From positions 640,001 to 704,000 of the forward strand of contig JAXCHI010000003.1 in NCBI GenBank assembly GCA_033977065.1: DNA of 64,000 nt, read 5' to 3'. The notes below the pieces were generated by a model. It did no database searches. It was not told the origin of the DNA and saw only the letters and a list, made by a program, of their open reading frames with translations. The translations under genes and the position numbers were made by a program. This DNA comes from Candidatus Algichlamydia australiensis. GTDB taxonomy: Bacteria; Chlamydiota; Chlamydiia; Chlamydiales; JAJFMI01. Positions 1,023-59,266 of the stretch are shown one piece after another (the first letter of the stretch is position 1; every line of letters begins with the position of its first letter).

Positions 1023-1496
1023 ATGTTGGATAGAGAATTTGGAGATATTATGGAAGATGAGTTTAAGAAAATTTTGAAATTTTTTGATATGCCGATGGAA
1101 GAGAAGGCAGATAAACTCGATTCAGTTTTTGAAGAGACTTCCGTTTTTTTAGAGCGATTTAAGCATGTATTTGAGACAGGAACGCCTGAGGAAAAAAAGG
1201 CGATGATCGAAAAAGTACTTGAGCTGCAATCGCGGTTAAAGGGCGAAATGAAGCAACTAACAGAGGCTTCAGGGCTCACAGAAGAGCAAATTATGCAATT
1301 TGCGACAAACCCCAAAAATTTTAAAGAGGGGCAGTGGGACTCAATTGAATCGTCTCGAAAAAAGATTGAGGGACAGGCGAAAGATATCGCAAAAAATCTT
1401 CGCAAAGAGTTTGGTGGCAACAAGGATGAGGGCAGTGACGATGATGATAAGCCCCCATCAGCAGGTGGCGGCAAGAAGGGTTGGATTCCTGGCTAG
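1023..1496 (+). CDS. Hypothetical helical protein
   Basis: 157-aa ORF, K/E-rich; its TAG stop is the first bases of palindromic element A. Confidence 0.7.
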   Translation: MLDREFGDIMEDEFKKILKFFDMPMEEKADKLDSVFEETSVFLERFKHVFETGTPEEKKAMIEKVLELQSRLKGEMKQLTEASGLTEEQIMQFATNPKNFKEGQWDSIESSRKKIEGQAKDIAKNLRKEFGGNKDEGSDDDDKPPSAGGGKKGWIPG

Positions 1497-1660
1497 TACT
1501 TCGTAACAGAAATTTTTAGCATTATTTTTACGTCAAAGCCTCGGGATTGAACTATCGAAAATCACCTCGTATTTGATTAATACTAGGTGACTTGCGATAG
1601 CCCAATCGCGAGAGCTTTCACGTTAAAAAGAATAGTAAAAATTTCTGTTACAGAGTACTA
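1494..1660. mobile_element. Full-length palindromic MITE-like element, family A (167 bp)
   Basis: TAGTACTTCGTAACAGAAATTTTTA...TAAAAATTTCTGTTACAGAGTACTA; arms pair imperfectly to the centre (TCACCTCGTATT/AATACTAGGTGA); TA at both ends. Confidence 0.85.
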
Positions 1661-1881
1661 GTACTTTGTAACAGAAAAATTTTATTATCTAATTTAAAAA
1701 AACAGCCAATAGAGCGCATCGCGCGTTCATTCCCCACCCTCCACTTCGTTTCGGGTAGGGCCCCTTTCGCGTCGCTTGCGCGGCTGTTTTTTTTGTTTTG
1801 TAGAAAATTTTGTATGATCTAGACAGCGTCGTTAAATCCACGTGGTCACCTTATTTTGCACATTTGGGCTTCACTTTTACG
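1659..1881. repeat. Composite element A2: A-type end, GC-rich structured core and diverged B-type end
   Basis: Starts TAGTACTTTGTAACAG sharing the TA of element A; matches the reverse complement of about 35090-35446; 1820-1881 (TAGACAGCGTCGTTAAA...) resembles the family B left arm. Confidence 0.8.
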
Positions 1882-6015: not shown

Positions 6016-6340
6016 CCTGAGTTGTTAACCAATTTCTCCTGCAAAGAGAAAGGGTTTCGATGAGATGTTTCGTTTCAAATTAAAGGAGTGTTAGATAGCG
6101 TCGTCAAAAGCATACAACCATCTTATTTTTCATGTTTGGGCTCCATTTTTGTGCTCAAATGAAGCGGAATTTACAAATTCAGCTTCAATTTCCGCACAAA
6201 AATAAGCTGCAAACATGAAAAATAATCTGATTATAGCCTTTTGACGACGCTATCTAAATGATCATTTCTGAAATTTTGAACGAAATAGATCGCGAAAAAA
6301 CTCCTCCCAGAGTGGGGGGGGAAGGGGTAGCAACTTGAGT
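6016..6340. mobile_element. Palindromic element family C (about 162 bp) interrupted in its loop by a family B copy
   Basis: CCTGAGTTGTTAACCAATTTCTCCT...AAAGGAGTGT[B]AATGATCATTTCTGAA...TAGCAACTTGAG; aligns with the reverse complement of uninterrupted 39038-39194. Confidence 0.8.
6092..6256 (+). mobile_element. Palindromic MITE-like element family B, copy 1 (165 bp incl. both TA)
   Basis: TAGATAGCGTCGTCAAAAG...CTTTTGACGACGCTATCTA; near-identical to 13840-14004 (inverted) and 27128-27292. Confidence 0.95.
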
Positions 6341-13594: not shown

Positions 13595-14813
13595 TTGACT
13601 ACCATTTGCAGTCGTGAGAACTCTACACTTTACCCCTGTTTTATTCGAAATGGTCTCTTTAGAGATCCAAAAAAAGAGTATGGGCTTAATTTTGGAGATG
13701 TAGAAAAAGTAGAAAAAATTTGCACGCTTGGGCTCTTTGAGAAAGTCTTATATGGGGAGAAAACAGTTAAAAGTTTGCAAAGGAGAGTTTATTTCGACAA
13801 GAATCTTAGATTTGTTAATTTTAAAAACTTAGATATTTCTAGATAGTGTCGTCAAAAGGCTATAATCAGATTATTTTTCATGTTTGCAGCTTATTTTTGT
13901 GCGGAAATTGAAGCTGAATTTGTAAATTCCGCTTCATTTGAGCACAAAAATGGAGCCCAAACATGAAAAATAAGATGGTTGTATGCTTTTGACGACGCTA
14001 TCTAATTGTTGCACACATCATTACGAACCTGATCGTGAGATAGCTGAAACTTATCTCGAATTAGAAAAAGTTTTTGGAAAGTGGACCCTACCACTTGCGC
14101 GTTTACTGATTCAAGATACAGAAGTTCTCTCTAAGTGGGCGCCAATCCCAACCAAAATTCCCCTTGATAATAGAGAGATTGAATTTACCTGGTGCAAGGA
14201 AGAATTAGAAACTAGAGTAAAGAATGCATATAAAAACGAGGAAAGAGAGTTTTTTGTACAGATCATAAACTTCTGGAGTGAATTGGAGGGTCGAGAGTGG
14301 AATGAAGGGTTCTACTTTCACTGGATCTATATCGTCTATCGCATACGCACCATTTTGGAAAACAGTAAGGAAAATTGTGGTGAGGATTTTTGGATCTGCA
14401 TCCGTCACTTTGTCGACGGGGCGCAACTTTATGGTTGGTGGGATAAATTGCTTAATCTTGCAGAAGGAAGTGAGAAAGAAAAAGAGATTCAAAGAATTCC
14501 TTTTCAGGTGCGACAAATTTCAAAATTAAGACACGAAGACAAGCAAGCATTGCTGAGTCTTATGACGGAGGTTTTTTCTAATTCGGAATTGATAAGTGGG
14601 GTAGGAGATTGGGAATATTATAATGATTTTGAGGCATCTTCACTCCCGAATACTACAAACAAAAAGAAAGAGGGTAGAGCAAAAGTTCACCTTATAGCTG
14701 GTATTGCACTCATTACTTTTGGTATCATCGGGGGTCTATACTATTATGGAAAACTTGATCGACTTCTCCAATATACGAAAGATTTTAGTCGCAAAACTGC
14801 GCCACCACGGTGA
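13595..14813 (+). pseudogene. 351-aa hypothetical protein with C-terminal TM anchor, split by element B
   Basis: Excising 163 bp fuses ORF 13595-13846 and ORF 13983-14813 in frame (...NLDIS|NCCTHHYE...; 1056 bp); start codon uncertain. Confidence 0.85.
13840..14004 (-). mobile_element. Palindromic element family B, copy 2 (inverted)
   Basis: 165 bp, reverse complement of copies 1 and 3 with about 1 mismatch each; TA duplicated. Confidence 0.95.
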
Positions 14814-16383: not shown

Positions 16384-16517
16384 TGTCCGAATTATAACTA
16401 ATTCGGACAAAAATCTTCTAAGAACTGGCCGAAAACCCGTTAATTCGGACAAAAACAGGCCAAAAAATGTCCGAATTGTGATAATTCGGACAAAAATTAT
16501 CGAAAAGTGTCCGAATT
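16384..16517. repeat. Array of six TGTCCGAATT/AATTCGGACA sites
   Basis: Copies at 16384(+), 16400(-), 16442(-), 16468(+), 16483(-), 16508(+). Confidence 0.9.
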
Positions 16518-27105: not shown

Positions 27106-27127
27106 AGAGAATTTATTAGAAAAGTTT

Positions 27128-27292
27128 TAGATAGCGTCGTCAAAAGCATACAACCATCTTATTTTTCATGTTTGGGCTCCATCTTTGTGCTCAAATGAAG
27201 CGGAATTTACAAATTCAGCTTCAATTTCCGCACAAAAATAAGCTGCAAACATGAAAAATAATCTGATTATAGCCTTTTGACGACACTATCTA
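27128..27292 (+). mobile_element. Palindromic element family B, copy 3
   Basis: 165 bp, about 2 mismatches to copy 1; TA flanks. Confidence 0.95.
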
Positions 27293-27328
27293 ATTTTTGT
27301 GAAAAGAAATTTGACTCCCTCTTAACCA

Positions 27329-27357
27329 TTGTCAAGAAGGATTTTCCTTAGTAGAAT
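27329..27357 (+). promoter_or_regulatory. Sigma66-type promoter for tRNA-Arg(TCT)
   Basis: TTGTCA-N17-TAGAAT. Confidence 0.65.
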
Positions 27358-27365
27358 GAGAGAAC

Positions 27366-27527
27366 AGGGGCATTGAATAACTGCTCTTTCAGGGAAGGGT
27401 TCAAAAATTGAGATGAAATTTGTTTTGGAGCACAGAGCTAACTTGATTAAAGTTAGCGAGTACGAAAAACAAACTTGAGCCAATTTTTGCATCCTTATCA
27501 GGAGGTCTGAGTTGTTCAGCGACTCCT
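27366..27527. repeat. Palindromic element family D (about 162 bp) in the tRNA-Arg leader
   Basis: AGGGGCATTGAATAACT...GCTAACTT/AAGTTAGC...AGTTGTTCAGCGACTCCT; related to 59091-59189. Confidence 0.82.
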
Positions 27528-27532
27528 TTAGT

Positions 27533-27606
27533 GGATTGGTAGCTCAGTTGGATAGAGCATCCGCCTTCTAAGCGGACGGTCGCAGGTTCGAGTCCTGCCC
27601 AATCCG
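27533..27606 (+). tRNA. tRNA-Arg(TCT)
   Basis: GGATTGGTAGCTCAGTTGGATAGAGCATCCGCCTTCTAAGCGGACGGTCGCAGGTTCGAGTCCTGCCCAATCCG. Confidence 0.97.
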
Positions 27607-27610
27607 TTAC

Positions 27611-27639
27611 GGAGCGACAGGTGTCGCTCCAAATTTTTT
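27611..27639 (+). terminator. Stem-loop after tRNA-Arg
   Basis: GGAGCGAC-AGGT-GTCGCTCC followed by AAATTTTTT. Confidence 0.55.
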
Positions 27640-27643
27640 AGTT

Positions 27644-30241
27644 ATGTACTTAGGCGAATACGCGTTTGAAAAAAAGTCTTTCCCAAATTTAGTAGATGTT
27701 TTTGCTGAGTTTAAGGGGCCGAAATTTGAAAAGCTCAATGAGCACATGCGGCGCTGTGCTGTTTCTCGCGCGCTTTGCCACTTGATTGAAGAGCAGGAAG
27801 AACCCTGCTTTTTGCTTCCCCATGTCATCGATTTCATTTCAAAGCTCCACGAGGAAAAAATTATTGGGTATTATACCTTCTCTAGTTTTGAACTCTGGTT
27901 GAATCAGTACTCTTCTTTGAGTGACGAAGAGAATTATCATGTGAGGGCAAAGATTGTAGGTGCGCGAGTACCCCGTGATGCTTATCAAGTTTACTTTCCT
28001 ATTGGTATGGGCAAGCGCTATGAAGGCTCCCATTTTGTCACGGCTCATAGCTCTCCCGATTTGGATACGACCGTTGCCTCTTTTTGGGGATGGGTCGATG
28101 CGTTTGGTGCAAGGGTTGGAAAGGGTTTGCATATTTGGAATGTTCCTGGCGGACCACCTGGAAATCAGATTGAAATTGGGATGCTTTTTTACGATTTGCT
28201 TGGCAAGGGAATTTTCTCTAACTTAGCCAAGGGTCGCTCGCGTCTAACGCTTTCAAGCTATGATTTAATGACCCAAGAGGGGCTAATTAAGAAATTGCCA
28301 CAGGAACCGGCACTCAGTCTTGACCACGAGAGAAATTTAAATGCGATTGTTTTGATCGATAAAGAGGGCTACTTTTTAGGGGATTGGCGCTATTTTGATG
28401 TGGAGGGTGTCCGTCAGGTTGTTACAGCTCTTGAAAATTGCTTGCGCTGGATCGAAAATGACATGCACTCGCGTATCATTACTTTTTTTGCCAAAAAGGA
28501 GTTAAAGAGAGAAGAGGTCCCGCCATTTGCAGAGTCCCTCATGTATGAGGAGATCAAGTCTTCTGAGCCGGGCCGCGATTTGACGCTCCGCCAGCAAAAA
28601 CTCTTGCAGCTCTACTTAGAAAAAGTTCTTCGTGTTGCTAGCGGTTTCAATTGCACATTCTTAGAGCTTGTTGATGCAATGGAGAGCGCTTCGATCGCAG
28701 ATTTCTCTAATTTCAAAAGGTATCTCAAGGAGCTAGAGACAAAGGGCTTTTTTGACTCTTCAGGCGCATTGATTGAAGATCGCCCCAAGCTCTTCTCGCA
28801 TATTGAAAAAATTATGAGCGCTCTTTCGGATGGGTTTCGCGAGATTCGTCTTTATGTTGAGCAATTGGAAATTGCGCTAAAAATTAAATCTAATGTTTTT
28901 GGTTACGCTCCGCAATATCTTGGTTACAGGGCAGATATTGAAGAGGTCAAAACAAAAATGGGCTCCTATCCTTATCTGACGGTAACATACCCAGATCCGT
29001 CTGGAAAAAAGATTCCTGTGGGGGTTGTTCACGCATCGAGTTTGCAAAAGCCAACTTTAGGGACTGTAACACTGCGCGATTTTTCAAACAGAGAAGAGAC
29101 TAAGGTACCCTCATTTTTAGAGGTGATCAGTGTCATCGACCATCACAAGAGCAACTTTTCAACTCAAGTACCTGCCACAATTATTGTAAGCGATGCGCAA
29201 TCGGCAAATGCACTTGTTGCTCAAGCAAGTTTTACAATTCATGATCGTTACTCCTCTTTTGGTTTTGATTCGAAAGCAGTTGATGCGCAAATTAACGAGT
29301 TACAGGGCAAAAAAGACCGAGAATCTCTACGCCTTCTGCAAAGGCTCTTACAACGTCAAGGCGTATCAGAAGAATATTATATCGCTAAAGATCGTCAGTT
29401 TATGGAGTATTTGCACTATCTCTTTGCGATTTTAGATGATACTGATCTTTTGACAAAACTCTCCTACCGCGATGTCTATACTGTTGCTTCTTTGGTCAAT
29501 CGTATGAAGTCGATTATCGAGGGCAAAGAGGTCGAGCTCATACACTTTGATGATATTCCTCAAGACCAAAAATTTGTGAAAAAGGCTGCAAAGCGTCTTC
29601 TGCAGTGTCACGATCTCCACTCTTTATATGCTAAAGTCTACGTGGCTCGCGAAAATGCTGTAGATGAGGAGATTGAAAAAGCTGCGAAGGGGGAAGAGAC
29701 GGGCTTTTATCTCGACACTAAGATTCAAAATAATTGCGTACGCGTGGGGCAGAGTAAACTTTTTCGCAAAAATTTGCCCTGTTTCAGCAAGCATGTTGAA
29801 GCCCTTCAAAAGCGCTGGTATGAGGAGAGTTTAGCTGCTTTTGAGAAAAAAGATGAACTGGATCTACATCTTCATATGATTTCTACGATTGCTTCTGCAG
29901 AGGAGCTTGTTAGTGGCAATGAAACAAGGTATGAGCATAAAGATGAGCTTTGGATTTTTATACCCAAAACAGATCTTGGTACAGAGCATTTGCGCCTCTT
30001 TCTAAGCGCTTTTCAAAATTCTCCCCAGATTGCGCATGCTGAGGTAGAAGGGGAGTTTGTGGGGGAAAACGCGGAAGAGCTTGCTACAATATTCAAAGAG
30101 AGTTTTCGCAATATTCCCATGAAAGTTGCAGAAAAGCCGCAAGGGCCTCCGATTGCAATTTTGCGTTATCCAGCAGGGACGATCAACTCACGCAAGAGCA
30201 TGATCACGCCCTACCTTCCTACTCATCACATCGCTAACTAA
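27644..30241 (+). CDS. Large DHH-superfamily protein (family II pyrophosphatase PpaC-like motifs)
   Basis: AHSSPDLDTTVAS, VIDHH, AILDDT resemble PpaC motifs; 865 aa. Confidence 0.6.
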   Translation: MYLGEYAFEKKSFPNLVDVFAEFKGPKFEKLNEHMRRCAVSRALCHLIEEQEEPCFLLPHVIDFISKLHEEKIIGYYTFSSFELWLNQYSSLSDEENYHVRAKIVGARVPRDAYQVYFPIGMGKRYEGSHFVTAHSSPDLDTTVASFWGWVDAFGARVGKGLHIWNVPGGPPGNQIEIGMLFYDLLGKGIFSNLAKGRSRLTLSSYDLMTQEGLIKKLPQEPALSLDHERNLNAIVLIDKEGYFLGDWRYFDVEGVRQVVTALENCLRWIENDMHSRIITFFAKKELKREEVPPFAESLMYEEIKSSEPGRDLTLRQQKLLQLYLEKVLRVASGFNCTFLELVDAMESASIADFSNFKRYLKELETKGFFDSSGALIEDRPKLFSHIEKIMSALSDGFREIRLYVEQLEIALKIKSNVFGYAPQYLGYRADIEEVKTKMGSYPYLTVTYPDPSGKKIPVGVVHASSLQKPTLGTVTLRDFSNREETKVPSFLEVISVIDHHKSNFSTQVPATIIVSDAQSANALVAQASFTIHDRYSSFGFDSKAVDAQINELQGKKDRESLRLLQRLLQRQGVSEEYYIAKDRQFMEYLHYLFAILDDTDLLTKLSYRDVYTVASLVNRMKSIIEGKEVELIHFDDIPQDQKFVKKAAKRLLQCHDLHSLYAKVYVARENAVDEEIEKAAKGEETGFYLDTKIQNNCVRVGQSKLFRKNLPCFSKHVEALQKRWYEESLAAFEKKDELDLHLHMISTIASAEELVSGNETRYEHKDELWIFIPKTDLGTEHLRLFLSAFQNSPQIAHAEVEGEFVGENAEELATIFKESFRNIPMKVAEKPQGPPIAILRYPAGTINSRKSMITPYLPTHHIAN

Positions 30242-35064: not shown

Positions 35065-35460
35065 CATTATTTTTACGTCAAAGCTCTCGCATAAAAATAG
35101 ATCCCAAACGTAAAAACAGGGTGACCAAAAGGATTTAACGACACTGTATAGAACATGCAAAGTTTTCTGCAAAACAAAAAAAACAGCCGCGCAAGCGACG
35201 TGAAAGGGGCCCTACCCAAAACGAAGTGGAGGGTGGGGAATGAACGCGCGATGCGCTCGATGGCTTCAGATTGGCTTTGAAAAATTGCGGTGCAGGAGGA
35301 AGAAGTAGTGCTTTGCACGGTTTTCCGACGAAACGCAATTTGGCATGCCAAGATGAAGCTCAAAGGGCAGCGGGGATTTGCCCGACTGTCTCTATTGGCT
35401 GTTTTTTTTTAAATTAAACACTAAGATTTTCTGTTACGGAGTACTAGTACTCTGTAACAG
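35062..35460. repeat. Composite element A2, long inverted copy, ending in a head-to-head A-end junction
   Basis: Reverse complement of 1659-1881 plus 134 extra bp (35259-35392); starts with an A-arm fragment TAGCATTATTTTTACGTCAAAGC; ends CTGTTACGGAGTACTAGTACTCTGTAACAG. Confidence 0.85.
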
Positions 35461-38258: not shown

Positions 38259-38396
38259 ATAAGAACTATGCTAAGGAGATACGAAACAATTTATTTGCCG
38301 ATTCCAATAACTATACCTAGTTATTTGTGGTCTCCAAAAACTGCCTTTTAGCATTTTCTGTTCGACCTACCGGCAAAACACTTGCTCAAATATTCC

Positions 38397-39017
38397 TTAA
38401 GTGGTGTGCGCAAGGAATTCGCAAACAAGAGGAACATTGATCGGAAGCGCAAGAGGAATCTGATCAAATTCAGGAGCATTTAAAAGCTTTCCTGAAAACT
38501 TGCCCTCTTCTACCTCCAAGTAGGGGGGAATTTCGATAGAGGTATTGCCTTGAGCCTCTTTAATTAACGCGTTGTTTTGCGATTTTTCGCGAATAGAGAC
38601 CACCATACCTGGTTTAACTTGGAAAGAGCGAACATCCACTTTTTTTCCATTCACAAGAACGTGTCCATGGGCAACGATTTGTTGTGCATGAAAGATTGTG
38701 GTGGCAAGACGTAGTCGGTAGACGATATTGTCTAAGCGGCACTCAAGCTGCTCTAAGAATGCGTGTGAAGTATTTTCTTTACGACGTACAGCCTCTTTGT
38801 AGTAACGTTTCAATTTTTTCTGCGACAGCATGCCGTAGACAGCTCTTAGCTTCTGCTTCTCATCAAGCTGTAGGCCGTAATCGGACTTTTTGCGGCGTCT
38901 TGCTCCGTGAACACCAGGAGGATTGGGTTTGTGAAGCATAGGATTGCGGCGGCGTCCAAAGATATTTACGCCATATTTTCGTGCGATACGATTTTTCGGT
39001 CCAGTATAACGGGCCAT
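38397..39017 (-). CDS. rpsD: 30S ribosomal protein S4
   Basis: MARYTGPK, SDYGLQLDEKQK, LECRLDNIVYR; true start 39017. Confidence 0.99.
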   Translation of the reverse strand: MARYTGPKNRIARKYGVNIFGRRRNPMLHKPNPPGVHGARRRKKSDYGLQLDEKQKLRAVYGMLSQKKLKRYYKEAVRRKENTSHAFLEQLECRLDNIVYRLRLATTIFHAQQIVAHGHVLVNGKKVDVRSFQVKPGMVVSIREKSQNNALIKEAQGNTSIEIPPYLEVEEGKFSGKLLNAPEFDQIPLALPINVPLVCEFLAHTT

Positions 39018-50555: not shown

Positions 50556-53500
50556 TTAATATAATATATTTTCTATGCAAGATTTGAAGATGAAGTACAA
50601 TACATAATCCCCTACCCACTCTTTAGAGATGGTATTGACTTTCTTAAGGGGAGGGGAGAACTTAATCCCCTCAAGCATGCCAACAGCGTTTAGTATCCAT
50701 AATACACTAGCTGTGGCTTTTAGGGCCGTGACAGTTATGTTTTGCACTTTTTCACTAAGTGTAGAGGCACTGTCGTTTCTCTCGTCAATTTCATCTTTCA
50801 AAGATTCGATCTCTCTAGGAAGAGCAGTATAATCACCGTACTCATAGCTATCAAAGGTTTTATCGAGGTAGCTTGTAAGAGGTGCTTTTTCATTTCGAGC
50901 CTTTTCAAAGACTCTCTTTCTCTCTTCAGGTTTTTTCGAATTTGGGAGATATTTTTTGATCTCCTCACTCTCAGGTAAGTAGCGATCAAGATAGGCTATT
51001 TTTTCAAGGAGGGTCTCTTCGCTAGAATTACCGGCATTCAATAACTCAACAACTTCGGCTTTTATTGTTGTTGGAAGAAGTTTATGAAGAGCTTGTCTTA
51101 GCGCAGTTCGTTTTTTGCTTTTTTGTAATTTTTTCTCCATAAACTTTTCTTGGTCTGCCCAAGTGGAAGAGTTTGGAAAATAGTTTTTAAGCTCTTTGTT
51201 TTCAGGGTAATATTTTTGAAGCTCTGAAAGCTTTACCATTAAATCAAAGCGTTTTTCTTTCTTTTTTTTGTCACACTTGATCTCTTCATATAGTCCAACC
51301 TCTTCATGTAAATTATGCACAAGAGAAAGGGGAAGCTGTGCAATTTTCTTCAATCTCTCTTTTTTAAGTTCATCTGTACTTTTTTCTTTCTTATCAACAT
51401 GCCCACCACCAGCTTTTGAGATCTCATCGGCAAATTTGCTCTTTTCGGTTTCCAACTCCATAAGAAGAATTTCCATCTTTTTGCGGATACCTTTTGGATC
51501 GCTATCGGTTGTATTTTTGCTACAATCAAACGGGAGGGTCTCTTGGAGAGGGTTAAAAGTTTTGATAACGCTTTTTGCACCACTAGCTACTAGATTTTTG
51601 TAGTAGCTTAGGTGGTAAAATTCATCACTCGTTGTTTTAGGAACAAAGGTTTCAGGGAGTATCTTTTTTAAATCTTCCAATATTTTGGTTTTTGCGGATT
51701 GAATTTCCTTAGCGGCTTCGCTACCATCTTTGTTTGTCTCTGTATTTTTGATAAGGTTAAGTAAATCAGATTCTTTGCTGGGGTAAAAAGTAGCGAGTTT
51801 TTTAATATTTTTTAGGACCTCTTCTGCTTCAACTTGAGTTAGTTCTCCACTTAGTAATTTATAAGTTCTTTCCGTAACAGGGGTTTGCAAAAGTATCTTT
51901 CTTAAATCTTCCGATAAATTTCTATCTGTAGATTGAATTGTGCTAGTAGCTTTGCGCACCTCTTTGTCTGTTTTTGCATTTGAGATGAGGCTAAGTAAGT
52001 GGTCTGCTTTATCAGGATAAAAGATGGCAAGTCGCTGAATATTTTTTACCACTTCTTTTGCTTCGGGTTTCTTGGGCGTTCCCTGCAATAAACTATAAGT
52101 CCTTTCAGCGATTGCAATCGGAAGCTCTTTTTTTAGTTTTTCAATATCACTAGCTTTTTGATGAAGGTCTTTTGCCATGACAAGGTTATGCGAAAGTATC
52201 TTTCTTAAATCTTCCCTTGTTGTTTCTGTTGAAGATTGAATTGTCTTAGCAGCTTCGAGCAGCTCTTCACCTGTTTTTGCGTTTGATATGAGGTAAAGTA
52301 AGTGGCCTACTTTACCTGGATAAAAGATGTTAAGTTTCTGAATATTTTTTATGACCTCTTTTGCTTCAGTTTGATTTAGTTCTGCACCTAGTAATTTATA
52401 AGTTCTTTCTATAAAAGGGGGGTGCAAAAGTACCTTTCTTAAAACTTCCCTTGTTGTTTCTGTTGAAGATTGAATTGTCTTAGCAGCTTCGAGCACCTCT
52501 TTGTCTGTTTTTGCGTTTGAGATGAGGTTAAGCAAAGGATGTGCTTTATCTGGATAAAAGATGGCAAGTTTCTGAATATTTTTTACGACCTCTTTTGCTT
52601 CAGCTTGATTTAGTTCTGCACTTAGTAATTTATAAGTTCTTTCTATAAAAGGGGGTTGCAAAAGTATCTTTCTTAGAACTTCCCTTGTTGTTTCTGTTGA
52701 AGATTGAATTGTCTTAGCAGCTTCGAGCACCTCTTTGTCTGTTTTTGCGTTTGAGATGAGGTTAAGCATAAGCAAAGGATGTGCTTTATCCGAATATAAG
52801 GTGGCAAGTTTCTGAATATTTTTTACGACCTCTTCTGCTTTGAGTAGATTGAGCTTTCCCCGCAATAAGCTACAAGTGCTTTCCGCGATTCCAATTGGCG
52901 ATTTTTTCTTTAATTCTTCAACAAGGTTTTTCTCAATATTTTTTCGATTCTGCGCAATTGCGTCTGTTAAGCAGGTCACTTTGCGGTATTTTTCCCACGA
53001 GGAGAATTGTTCGATTTCTGCTTCGGAATAGAAGTCATTCAAATTGACCAACTCGTAATTACTTTTTTGGGGCGGGCGCATGAACGCTGACATAATTTCT
53101 TGAAGCGGATTTTTCGTAAGATTTGAAAGAGATATGTTTGCGAGTGCAGAGAGAGGTGAGGATGAGGAACCCACAGCTTCGTTAAATATATGATTAGAGC
53201 TGATGTATAAAAAAGCACGCGCTAAGTTACCAATATGCGGAAAGGCAGCCTGAAATAAGAGCGCTGATGCAAAAATAGAGATTACGACGAGTGTGATTTT
53301 TACAGCCGTGGCTTTATAAGAAATAAAGTTGTCTTCAAGCTCTTTGGCGGCATTTTTAATTTCCTCTTTGTAATTAACTAAAATCGTGTTTCGTAACTTT
53401 AGCTTTTCTAAAAAGGCTTCTGTTCGTGCTAGATCGTTTTCTCTCTCGTGCGCCTCGACTGTATCTTCAAGAGTATTCAAGAATTTGGGTTGTTGATAGT

Positions 53501-59056: not shown

Positions 59057-59090
59057 TGATACTTAAGAAACTGTATACTTAATGATCTAC

Positions 59091-59189
59091 AGGAACCACT
59101 GAACAAGTGCTCTTTTTGAAAAGGACTTAAAAATTTAGGCCAACTTTTTTTAAGCCCTTTCAGAAATCGTGACTTATTCAGTGTTTCCT
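59091..59189. repeat. Palindromic element family D, internally deleted copy in tRNA-Arg leader
   Basis: AGGAACCACTGAACAAGT...ACTTATTCAGTGTTTCCT; both arms align to 27366-27527. Confidence 0.8.
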
Positions 59190-59192
59190 AAT

Positions 59193-59266
59193 GCACCGAT
59201 AGCTCAATTGGATAGAGTACCTGGCTTCGGACCAGGTGGTTAGAGGTTCGAGTCCTCTTCGGTGCG
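59193..59266 (+). tRNA. tRNA-Arg(TCG)
   Basis: GCACCGATAGCTCAATTGGATAGAGTACCTGGCTTCGGACCAGGTGGTTAGAGGTTCGAGTCCTCTTCGGTGCG. Confidence 0.96.

What the first reader, a model, noticed from the sequence alone, without database searches (positions are those of the whole stretch)
27329..27606. Both tRNA-Arg genes carry the same hairpin family directly in their 5' leader
Seen: family D lies between a TTGTCA-N17-TAGAAT promoter and tRNA-Arg(TCT), ending 5 nt before it. A diverged, centrally shortened D copy (59091-59189) ends 3 nt before tRNA-Arg(TCG), in the same orientation, after a TATACT -10-like box. Stems are kept despite substitutions (TGAATAACT/AGTTGTTCA versus TGAACAAGT/ACTTATTCA). Inference: either targeting of tRNA 5' ends, where RNase P would release the hairpin as a free RNA at no cost, or a domesticated leader controlling tRNA-Arg maturation.
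Basis: partly seen in the sequence, partly recalled or inferred. Interest (0 to 1): 0.72.

Follow-up and report, generated by a model that had tools for sequence, protein, structure and literature searches.

The report
Mini-transposon lodged in chlamydial tRNA leaders
The hairpins in front of the two tRNA-Arg genes are copies of a small gene-less repeat scattered through this chlamydial genome, likely moved by an IS5-type transposase, that sits unusually often at the edges of tRNA genes and faces the same way as the tRNA, likely because tRNA processing would cut it off harmlessly rather than because it controls arginine tRNAs.

Summary
Observation confirmed: D1 (27366-27526, 161 nt) and a centrally deleted D2 (59092-59188, 97 nt) lie between a -10 box and tRNA-Arg(TCT)/(TCG). 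D is a MITE with 61 loci in this genome, partial pieces included. It makes 4-bp target duplications (13/44 here, 28/42 in G061), and its ends match IS5-family insertion sequences in two other chlamydial genomes. It is not Arg-specific: it also abuts tRNA-Cys, Gln (weak remnant), Lys and Trp and sits inside a tRNA-Ser pseudogene, while tRNA-Arg(CCT) and (ACG) lack it. The orthologous Arg leaders of 5/5 relatives are empty, and D2 has lost the conserved core, so a domesticated Arg leader is unlikely. Enrichment is real here (4/35 tRNA 5' ends; 0.1 expected; window chosen afterwards), and all 7 tRNA-linked copies are sense, against the family's lagging-strand bias. A younger burst in G061 hits 0/23 leaders examined. 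Best reading: tolerated, orientation-filtered insertions that RNase P would release. The central core recurs and covaries in ~160-nt chlamydial hairpins with other end types. No RNA data exist for this locus. Earlier scan notes reported hairpin MITEs in this genome and an IS5 MITE in tRNA leaders of another genome.

The parts
27329..27357 (+). sigma-70-type promoter-like site (TTGTCA-17-TAGAAT) of tRNA-Arg(TCT); position conserved in relatives, where the tRNA follows after 10-14 nt
   Evidence: activity not tested
27366..27526 (+). D1: full-length 161-nt MITE copy (subfamily S1), long imperfect hairpin; no intact target duplication at this copy
27427..27464 (+). central core of D1 (two internal loops and apical stem), shared with ~160-nt hairpin elements of other chlamydiae
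27533..27606 (+). tRNA-Arg(TCT)
27611..27630 (+). terminator-like stem-loop after tRNA-Arg(TCT)
   Evidence: not seen at this place in G001
38285..38407 (-). third D copy in the window: left ~120 nt only, between two protein genes, not near a tRNA
   Evidence: G000:C3:678285-678407
59074..59079 (+). -10-like box TATACT of tRNA-Arg(TCG); G001 and G002 have TACACT at about this place
   Evidence: no -35 passes the scan
59092..59188 (+). D2: 97-nt D copy with both arms and no central core (64-nt internal deletion)
59193..59266 (+). tRNA-Arg(TCG)

Best explanation
D is a 161-bp gene-less hairpin repeat with IS5-type ends and 4-bp target duplications, likely copied by an IS5-family transposase acting in trans, whose copies lie between the -10 box and the mature tRNA in this lineage only and likely persist because RNase P would cut the self-contained hairpin off the precursor. 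Shown: copy number, ends, duplications, matching IS5 ends in relatives, empty orthologous leaders, excess at tRNA edges, same-strand orientation. Inferred: (1) the AT-rich, easily melted DNA just behind strong tRNA promoters offers TWAA-like targets; (2) copies whose better-folding strand is transcribed leave the tRNA fold undisturbed and are kept, while flipped copies are lost; (3) retained copies then erode by central deletion (161, 97, 64, about 30 nt) while the base of the stem stays. The free ~165- and ~100-nt leader RNAs are predicted by-products.
For: 61 loci: 42 two-ended plus 19 profile hits, some partial; the reversed- and complement-genome controls gave 1 weak pair each. Exact 4-bp duplications in 13/44 vs 2.2 with shuffled partners and 28/42 in G061, mostly TTAA. 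IS5 transposases (NF033581; 320 and 277 bits, cut-off 140) sit in elements of G176 and G061 bounded by D-type ends; the G061 IS right end reads GGAACCTCTGGACAAGTG, as do that genome's MITE left ends. A G206 end identical to the D consensus precedes a 23-residue start resembling the N-termini of those transposases (by eye). IS5 duplicates a YTAR-like 4-mer and favours destabilised duplex DNA (PMC5493358, passages). Orthologous Arg leaders are empty in 5/5 relatives. tRNA 5' ends are occupied 4/35 (0.105 expected, P 5e-6), vs 22/1471 ORF stops (Fisher P 0.0025). 7/7 tRNA-linked copies are sense, whereas between tandem protein genes it is 18 sense vs 16 antisense. Non-tRNA copies favour the lagging strand 37/53, so P 5e-4 for all seven being sense. 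The sense strand folds better in 29/31 copies. RNase P RNA and RNase III are present.
Against: No transposase of the matching type is found in G000 (tblastn empty; assembly 93% complete), and D1 and D2 have no exact duplication. G061's younger burst (61 hits in the part fetched) occupies 0/23 tRNA leaders, and one of its nearest 3' neighbours (51 nt) is antisense. Families E and F of this genome have 0/77 copies within 10 nt of a tRNA, so tolerance alone does not put every MITE there. Pure neutral retention would need very many past insertions. In co-folding, flipping D broke the acceptor stem in only 1 of 3 loci. The 10-nt window was chosen after seeing the data, gene calls come from a crude ORF finder, and the Gln remnant is weak (E 0.003). 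No RNA evidence exists.
Confidence: 0.72

Rival explanations
1. Active targeting: the transposase is steered to tRNA transcription units (open promoter complexes or RNA polymerase) in a fixed orientation, so the excess arises at insertion, not by retention.
For: All six leader copies start about 8-12 nt behind the -10 box or lie in a tRNA spacer and end 4-8 nt before +1. Leader copies occur in three genomes of two families. IS5 hotspots lie in destabilised promoter DNA. E and F families show no such excess.
Against: The young G061 burst, which should show insertion preference best, has 0/23 leaders. 54/61 loci in G000 are elsewhere, many at stop codons. The spacing is forced by the short 10-14-nt leaders.
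Confidence: 0.13
2. The copies are kept because promoter plus RNase P deliver D as a free structured RNA whose conserved core has a function (protein decoy, or control of transposition).
For: The arms covary strongly: 70 and 43 double changes that keep a Watson-Crick pair, vs 21.8 and 12.9 double changes of any kind expected. The core is conserved and covaries across chlamydial families. The better-folding strand is the one transcribed at tRNAs.
Against: Several tRNA-edge copies (D2, Gln, G001 Ile, G155 Thr) have lost the core. Full-length tRNA-linked copies fold no better than the rest (P 0.49). Covariation is family-wide and can also come from copying between the arms. No expression data.
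Confidence: 0.08
3. Domesticated leader that controls maturation of tRNA-Arg.
For: Two Arg isoacceptors carry D in the same place and orientation with intact stems.
Against: Arg(CCT) and Arg(ACG) lack it, while Cys, Gln, Lys and Trp have it. It is absent from the orthologous Arg leaders in 5/5 relatives. D1 and D2 differ by a 64-nt deletion of the core. Predicted leader-tRNA cross-pairing is about nil (0.3-0.4 pairs).
Confidence: 0.04

Closest known systems
IS5-family (IS5 subgroup) insertion sequences and their MITEs
   Same: GG-starting inverted ends and a 4-bp YTAR-like duplication (PMC5493358 passages). The ends match IS5 elements of G176 and G061.
   Different: D's interior is not an internal deletion of those IS: no core or profile match beyond the ends. 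It is one 161-nt hairpin, and positions 3-8 of the two ends co-vary.
bcr1 of the Bacillus cereus group
   Same: About 155 bp, mobile, target duplication, transcribed, fold kept by compensatory changes (PMC3184786 passages; PMC6199540 passages; lead taken from an earlier scan note).
   Different: bcr1 is cruciform with a 5-bp TTTAT repeat. D is a single rod with a 4-bp duplication and a candidate IS5 partner. Sequence likeness was not tested.
YPAL/RU-2 and ERIC/IRU of enterobacteria; Correia/NEMIS of Neisseria
   Same: 100-170-nt long hairpins at gene edges, co-transcribed, with shortened forms; orientation matters for RNA fate in ERIC; RNase III acts on NEMIS (PMC2229807 parts 1-2 of 3).
   Different: ERIC and Correia have TA ends, and YPAL has variable duplications. 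The parts read describe effects on mRNAs, not on tRNA leaders.
Rickettsia palindromic elements (RPE)
   Same: 105-146-bp hairpins of an intracellular bacterium, found inside tmRNA and RNase P RNA genes with probably neutral effect (PMC2229807). D is likewise inside a tRNA-Ser pseudogene.
   Different: RPE often inserts in frame into proteins; no D copy lay well inside an ORF of 100 aa or more (0/61). A likeness of internal loops between RPE and the D core is recalled only and was not tested.

Membership tests
MITE | short, no transposase | tested here: met
   modal length 161 bp, far too short for the 318-aa partner-type transposase
MITE | terminal inverted repeats | tested here: met
   42 two-ended copies; 1 weak pair in each control genome
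MITE | target-site duplication | tested here: met
   4-bp exact in 13/44 vs 2.2 shuffled; 28/42 in G061; absent at D1 and D2 themselves
MITE | dispersed copies with filled and empty sites | tested here: met
   61 loci; empty Arg leaders in 5/5 relatives; Ala-Ile spacer filled in G001 and empty in G000
IS5-dependent MITE | ends match an IS5-family element | tested here: met
   G061 IS right end equals the first 18 nt of its MITE left end; the G176 IS has D-type ends and TTAA on both sides
IS5-dependent MITE | cognate transposase in the same genome | tested here: inconclusive
   none in G000 (93% complete); its one DUF772 IS5 has only partly similar ends and a different flank repeat; the G061 copy is frameshifted
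IS5-dependent MITE | mobilisation in trans | not testable with these tools
   needs a transposition assay
conserved cis-regulatory tRNA leader | kept at orthologous genes | tested here: not met
   0/5 relatives at either tRNA-Arg
conserved cis-regulatory tRNA leader | specific to one tRNA class | tested here: not met
   2/4 Arg genes; also Cys, Gln, Lys, Trp
described RNA family (Rfam 15) | score above gathering threshold | tested here: not met
   only tRNAs in the window; five loci with family copies gave only sub-threshold hairpin hits besides a tRNA
bcr1 / ERIC / YPAL / RPE | sequence homology | not tested
   their sequences were not fetched; end and duplication types differ

The most novel reading that the evidence does not exclude
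Chlamydiae carry a superfamily of ~160-nt hairpin elements in which one conserved, covarying structured core has been fitted with the ends of different IS families. The core is a functional single-strand module, and tRNA leaders act as launch pads where a strong promoter and RNase P turn a selfish insertion into a free small RNA with defined ends.
Probability: 0.12. Interest if true: 0.75.

Novelty: new variant of a known kind. Interest (0 to 1): 0.42.

Why it matters
It gives a concrete case of where mobile DNA can survive in a compact intracellular genome: the short processed leaders and trailers of tRNAs, in one orientation only. It ties an apparently undescribed chlamydial MITE to a candidate IS5 partner, which makes a mobilisation assay possible. 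It also raises a testable question: why hairpins with different IS-type ends keep one length and one covarying core. As a tRNA-Arg regulator it does not hold up.

Tried and rejected
RNA evidence: no public run held more than 7% of the words of 27300-27700. The four runs laid covered only the tRNA, with other organisms' flanks, so they say nothing on expression. Plain BLAST of D1 against 40 relatives gave only 3 short weak hits; a covariance model was needed (13/60 relatives). The G000 C1 IS5 (NF033578) was considered as partner and set aside: different end sequence and a 6-bp flank repeat. Other DDE hits in G000 have unrelated ends or none found. A 34-nt end query against plasmids gave only chance hits. 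The 3'-side pattern search found 0/22 genomes but missed the known G000 Lys and Trp copies, so it is uninformative. Replichore bias as the cause of tRNA co-orientation was rejected, because it points the other way. A general link of D to -10 boxes is weak: 4 sense vs 2 antisense of 44, and three of the four are tRNAs. G-U over A-C excess among single changes was significant in S1 (56:32, P 0.014) but not S2 (34:24, P 0.24), and does not separate RNA from single-stranded DNA. One ARAGORN call (C4 100-nt 'tRNA-Ser') was dropped as implausible on inspection before counting 35 tRNAs. Self-cleaving ribozyme families gave no Rfam match.

Full report
Observation. The window is G000:C3:640001-704000 of a 1.8-Mb, 7-contig genome. 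Related loci carry Chlamydiota record titles. D1 spans 27366-27526, starts 8 nt behind TAGAAT and ends 6 nt before tRNA-Arg(TCT). D2 spans 59092-59188, starts 12 nt behind TATACT and ends 4 nt before tRNA-Arg(TCG). Both fold as single long hairpins, better than all 200 shuffles. D2 aligns to a full copy with one 64-nt central gap. Rfam finds only the four tRNAs in the window.

Family. Iterated profile searches gave 55 hits at E<1e-5. A scan for paired ends gave 46 pairs against 1 in each control genome. My working list has 61 loci: 42 paired-end copies scoring 26 or more with profile support, plus 19 profile-only hits at E<=0.003, which include fragments and probably one element of a sister family. 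Most complete copies are 160-163 nt. Two subfamilies are about 75% identical within and 50% between. Exact 4-bp flank duplications occur in 13 of 44 copies against 2.2 with shuffled partners; 2-, 3- and 5-bp lengths show no excess. No copy lies well inside an ORF of 100 aa or more, and 22 of 1471 ORFs have D at their stop.

Partner transposase. A covariance model found matches in 13 of 60 relatives. An end pattern occurred in 19 of 401 genomes of the phylum, G000 included, with 37-38 hits each in three of them. Among the 30 loci returned, most ends bound ~161-nt hairpins or had no partner end in range. One (G176, L285) is the right end of a 1180-bp element with TTAA on both sides and an IS5 transposase gene. 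G061 holds a related, frameshifted IS5 whose right end equals the first 18 nt of that genome's MITE left end. G061 has a younger burst: 61 hits in contig C1 and two further stretches, with 28 of 42 near-complete copies showing an exact 4-bp duplication, mostly TTAA. IS5 duplicates a Py-T-A-Pu-like 4-mer and favours destabilised duplex regions (PMC5493358, passages). G000 has no detectable transposase of this type. The IS interiors do not contain D's core, so D is not a simple deletion derivative.

tRNA link. Of 35 tRNA genes, 4 have D within 10 nt of the 5' end (Cys, Arg-TCT, Arg-TCG and a ~30-nt Gln remnant at E 0.003) and 2 within 10 nt of the 3' end (Lys, Trp). About 0.1 per side is expected from uniform intergenic placement, and Fisher P is 0.0025 for 5' ends against ORF stops. 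The window size was chosen afterwards and the gene calls are crude; without Gln the count is 3 of 35. A seventh copy lies in the D loop of a tRNA-Ser pseudogene. Arg(CCT) and Arg(ACG) have none. In five relatives (G001 same genus, G002 same family, G045, G009, G013) both orthologous Arg leaders lack D. In the three aligned by eye, the tRNA follows the -10-like box after 10-14 nt. So D entered between promoter and tRNA in this lineage. Other leader copies: a 64-nt copy between tRNA-Ala and tRNA-Ile in G001 (26 tRNAs known; flanks scanned), and a 28-nt remnant before tRNA-Thr in G155 (30 of 36 tRNAs examined). Against a family-wide habit: G061 has 0 of 23 examined leaders occupied (of 34 tRNAs), with 3'-side neighbours at 23 nt (sense), 51 nt (antisense) and 119 nt (sense). 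The leader pattern matched in only 2 of 22 genomes and covers only some tRNA types. Families E (45 hits) and F (32 hits) of G000 have none within 10 nt of a tRNA.

Orientation. All 7 tRNA-linked copies in G000 are on the tRNA's strand (the Gln remnant is the least certain). Between tandem protein genes D is 18 sense and 16 antisense. Away from tRNAs D favours the lagging strand, as judged by GC skew: 37 of 53 in G000 and 46 of 57 on G061 C1. Six of the seven tRNAs are on the leading strand, so their co-orientation runs against this bias (P 5e-4). Replication-linked orientation biases are described for several IS families, with no fixed direction for IS5a (PMC3971601, passages). The D-sense strand folds better than its complement in 29 of 31 copies as RNA and 31 of 31 as DNA. 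In predicted co-folds the sense copy leaves the acceptor stem intact in 3 of 3 loci; flipping breaks it in 1 of 3. That is weak support for a folding filter.

Fold and core. At consensus Watson-Crick pairs, double changes that keep a pair number 70 (S1) and 43 (S2), against 21.8 and 12.9 double changes of any kind expected. Shared ancestry inflates these counts. The 80 titles shown are chlamydiae except three (two labelled Verrucomicrobia, one 'uncultured bacterium'), and two MAGs supply most rows. These cores sit in ~160-nt hairpins with at least three end types (TA-flanked TAC, TTAA-flanked GGA, and GAGG). Across 22 representatives the core has 81.5% paired cells and 13 of 16 pairs with two-sided changes, above all 500 shuffles. 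However, a one-column slide reaches a similar covariation score (0.289 vs 0.295), and many rows were selected by the pattern itself. What the core does is unknown; copying between the arms could explain part of the covariation. D2, the Gln remnant and the G001 and G155 leader copies lack the core, and full-length tRNA-linked copies fold no better than others. This argues against a core-dependent job in the leader.

Mechanism. Shown: MITE anatomy, IS5-type ends, lineage-specific gain, excess and co-orientation at tRNA edges. Inferred: insertion at TWAA-like sites in the AT-rich DNA behind strong promoters; co-transcription; removal by RNase P, whose RNA gene is present, as is RNase III; loss of flipped copies; erosion by central deletion (3 of 6 tRNA-edge copies shortened vs 6 of 37 other paired-end copies; suggestive only). 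That RNase P cuts at +1 regardless of leader sequence is my own background knowledge. No RNA data for this locus were found.

Known kinds and print status. The closest kinds are IS5 MITEs, bcr1, YPAL/ERIC/Correia and RPE. I read PMC2229807 parts 1-2 of 3 and passages of PMC3184786, PMC6199540, PMC3733652, PMC3971601 and PMC5493358; no supplements were opened. Nine full-text searches, of which I saw listings and abstract starts, showed no description of a chlamydial MITE of this kind or of MITEs enriched in tRNA leaders. In one search none of the 20 papers listed (of 266) contained 'miniature inverted-repeat'. Subscription papers are not covered, so this is weak evidence of novelty. Earlier AI notes of this scan describe hairpin MITE families of this genome and an IS5 MITE in tRNA leaders of another genome; they are not independent support.

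Verdict. The feature is real and the tRNA-edge excess is more than chance in this genome. It is best read as a by-product of an IS5-driven MITE, not a tRNA-Arg control element. Interest 0.42; new variant of a known kind.

Noticed in passing
G000:C2:358400-359700 (L053, L298): tRNA-Ser(TGA) region: a pseudo-tRNA split by D in its D loop and by a second GC-rich ~75-nt insert in its T loop, followed by the intact gene and tandem repeats of a T-arm-like unit carrying similar inserts. G001 has a similar array with a nested D copy (L101).
   Followed up: partly
window 27127-27292, 6091-6256, 13840-14005: Family E, a young TA-flanked ~164-bp hairpin MITE (45 hits in the genome, window copies 97-99% alike); one copy lies about 36 nt upstream of the tRNA-Arg(TCT) promoter.
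   Followed up: partly
window 1493-1661 and 1709-1857, 35113-35261: Further repeat families F (169 nt, CTAG ends, 32 hits) and G (149 nt, 21 hits).
   Followed up: partly
G061:C1 (L232-L251, L257-L274): D-type copies lie on the lagging strand in 46 of 57 cases, switch orientation at the GC-skew switch, and often form tandem arrays sharing one TTAA.
   Followed up: yes
G013 (L089-L100): At least 48 model hits; those viewed are mostly identical core-bearing hairpins with TACC ends and apparent 3-bp TWA duplications: a very young burst suited to finding its transposase.
   Followed up: partly
G000:C1:79605-81172 (L015:1230-2797): IS5-family element (416-aa ORF, NF033578) with TATGTA on both sides, apparently inside a nuclease-like gene.
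   Followed up: partly
G000:C3:186273-186595: D copy lengthened to 323 bp by a nested element of another hairpin family.
   Followed up: no
window 27611-27630: Perfect GC-rich stem-loop after tRNA-Arg(TCT), absent at this place in G001; its ends (GGAG...CTCC) resemble D ends.
   Followed up: no
window 51635-52921: Coding tandem repeats with a 234-nt (78-codon) period.
   Followed up: no
window 16399-16516: Three head-to-tail ~42-nt palindromic units.
   Followed up: no
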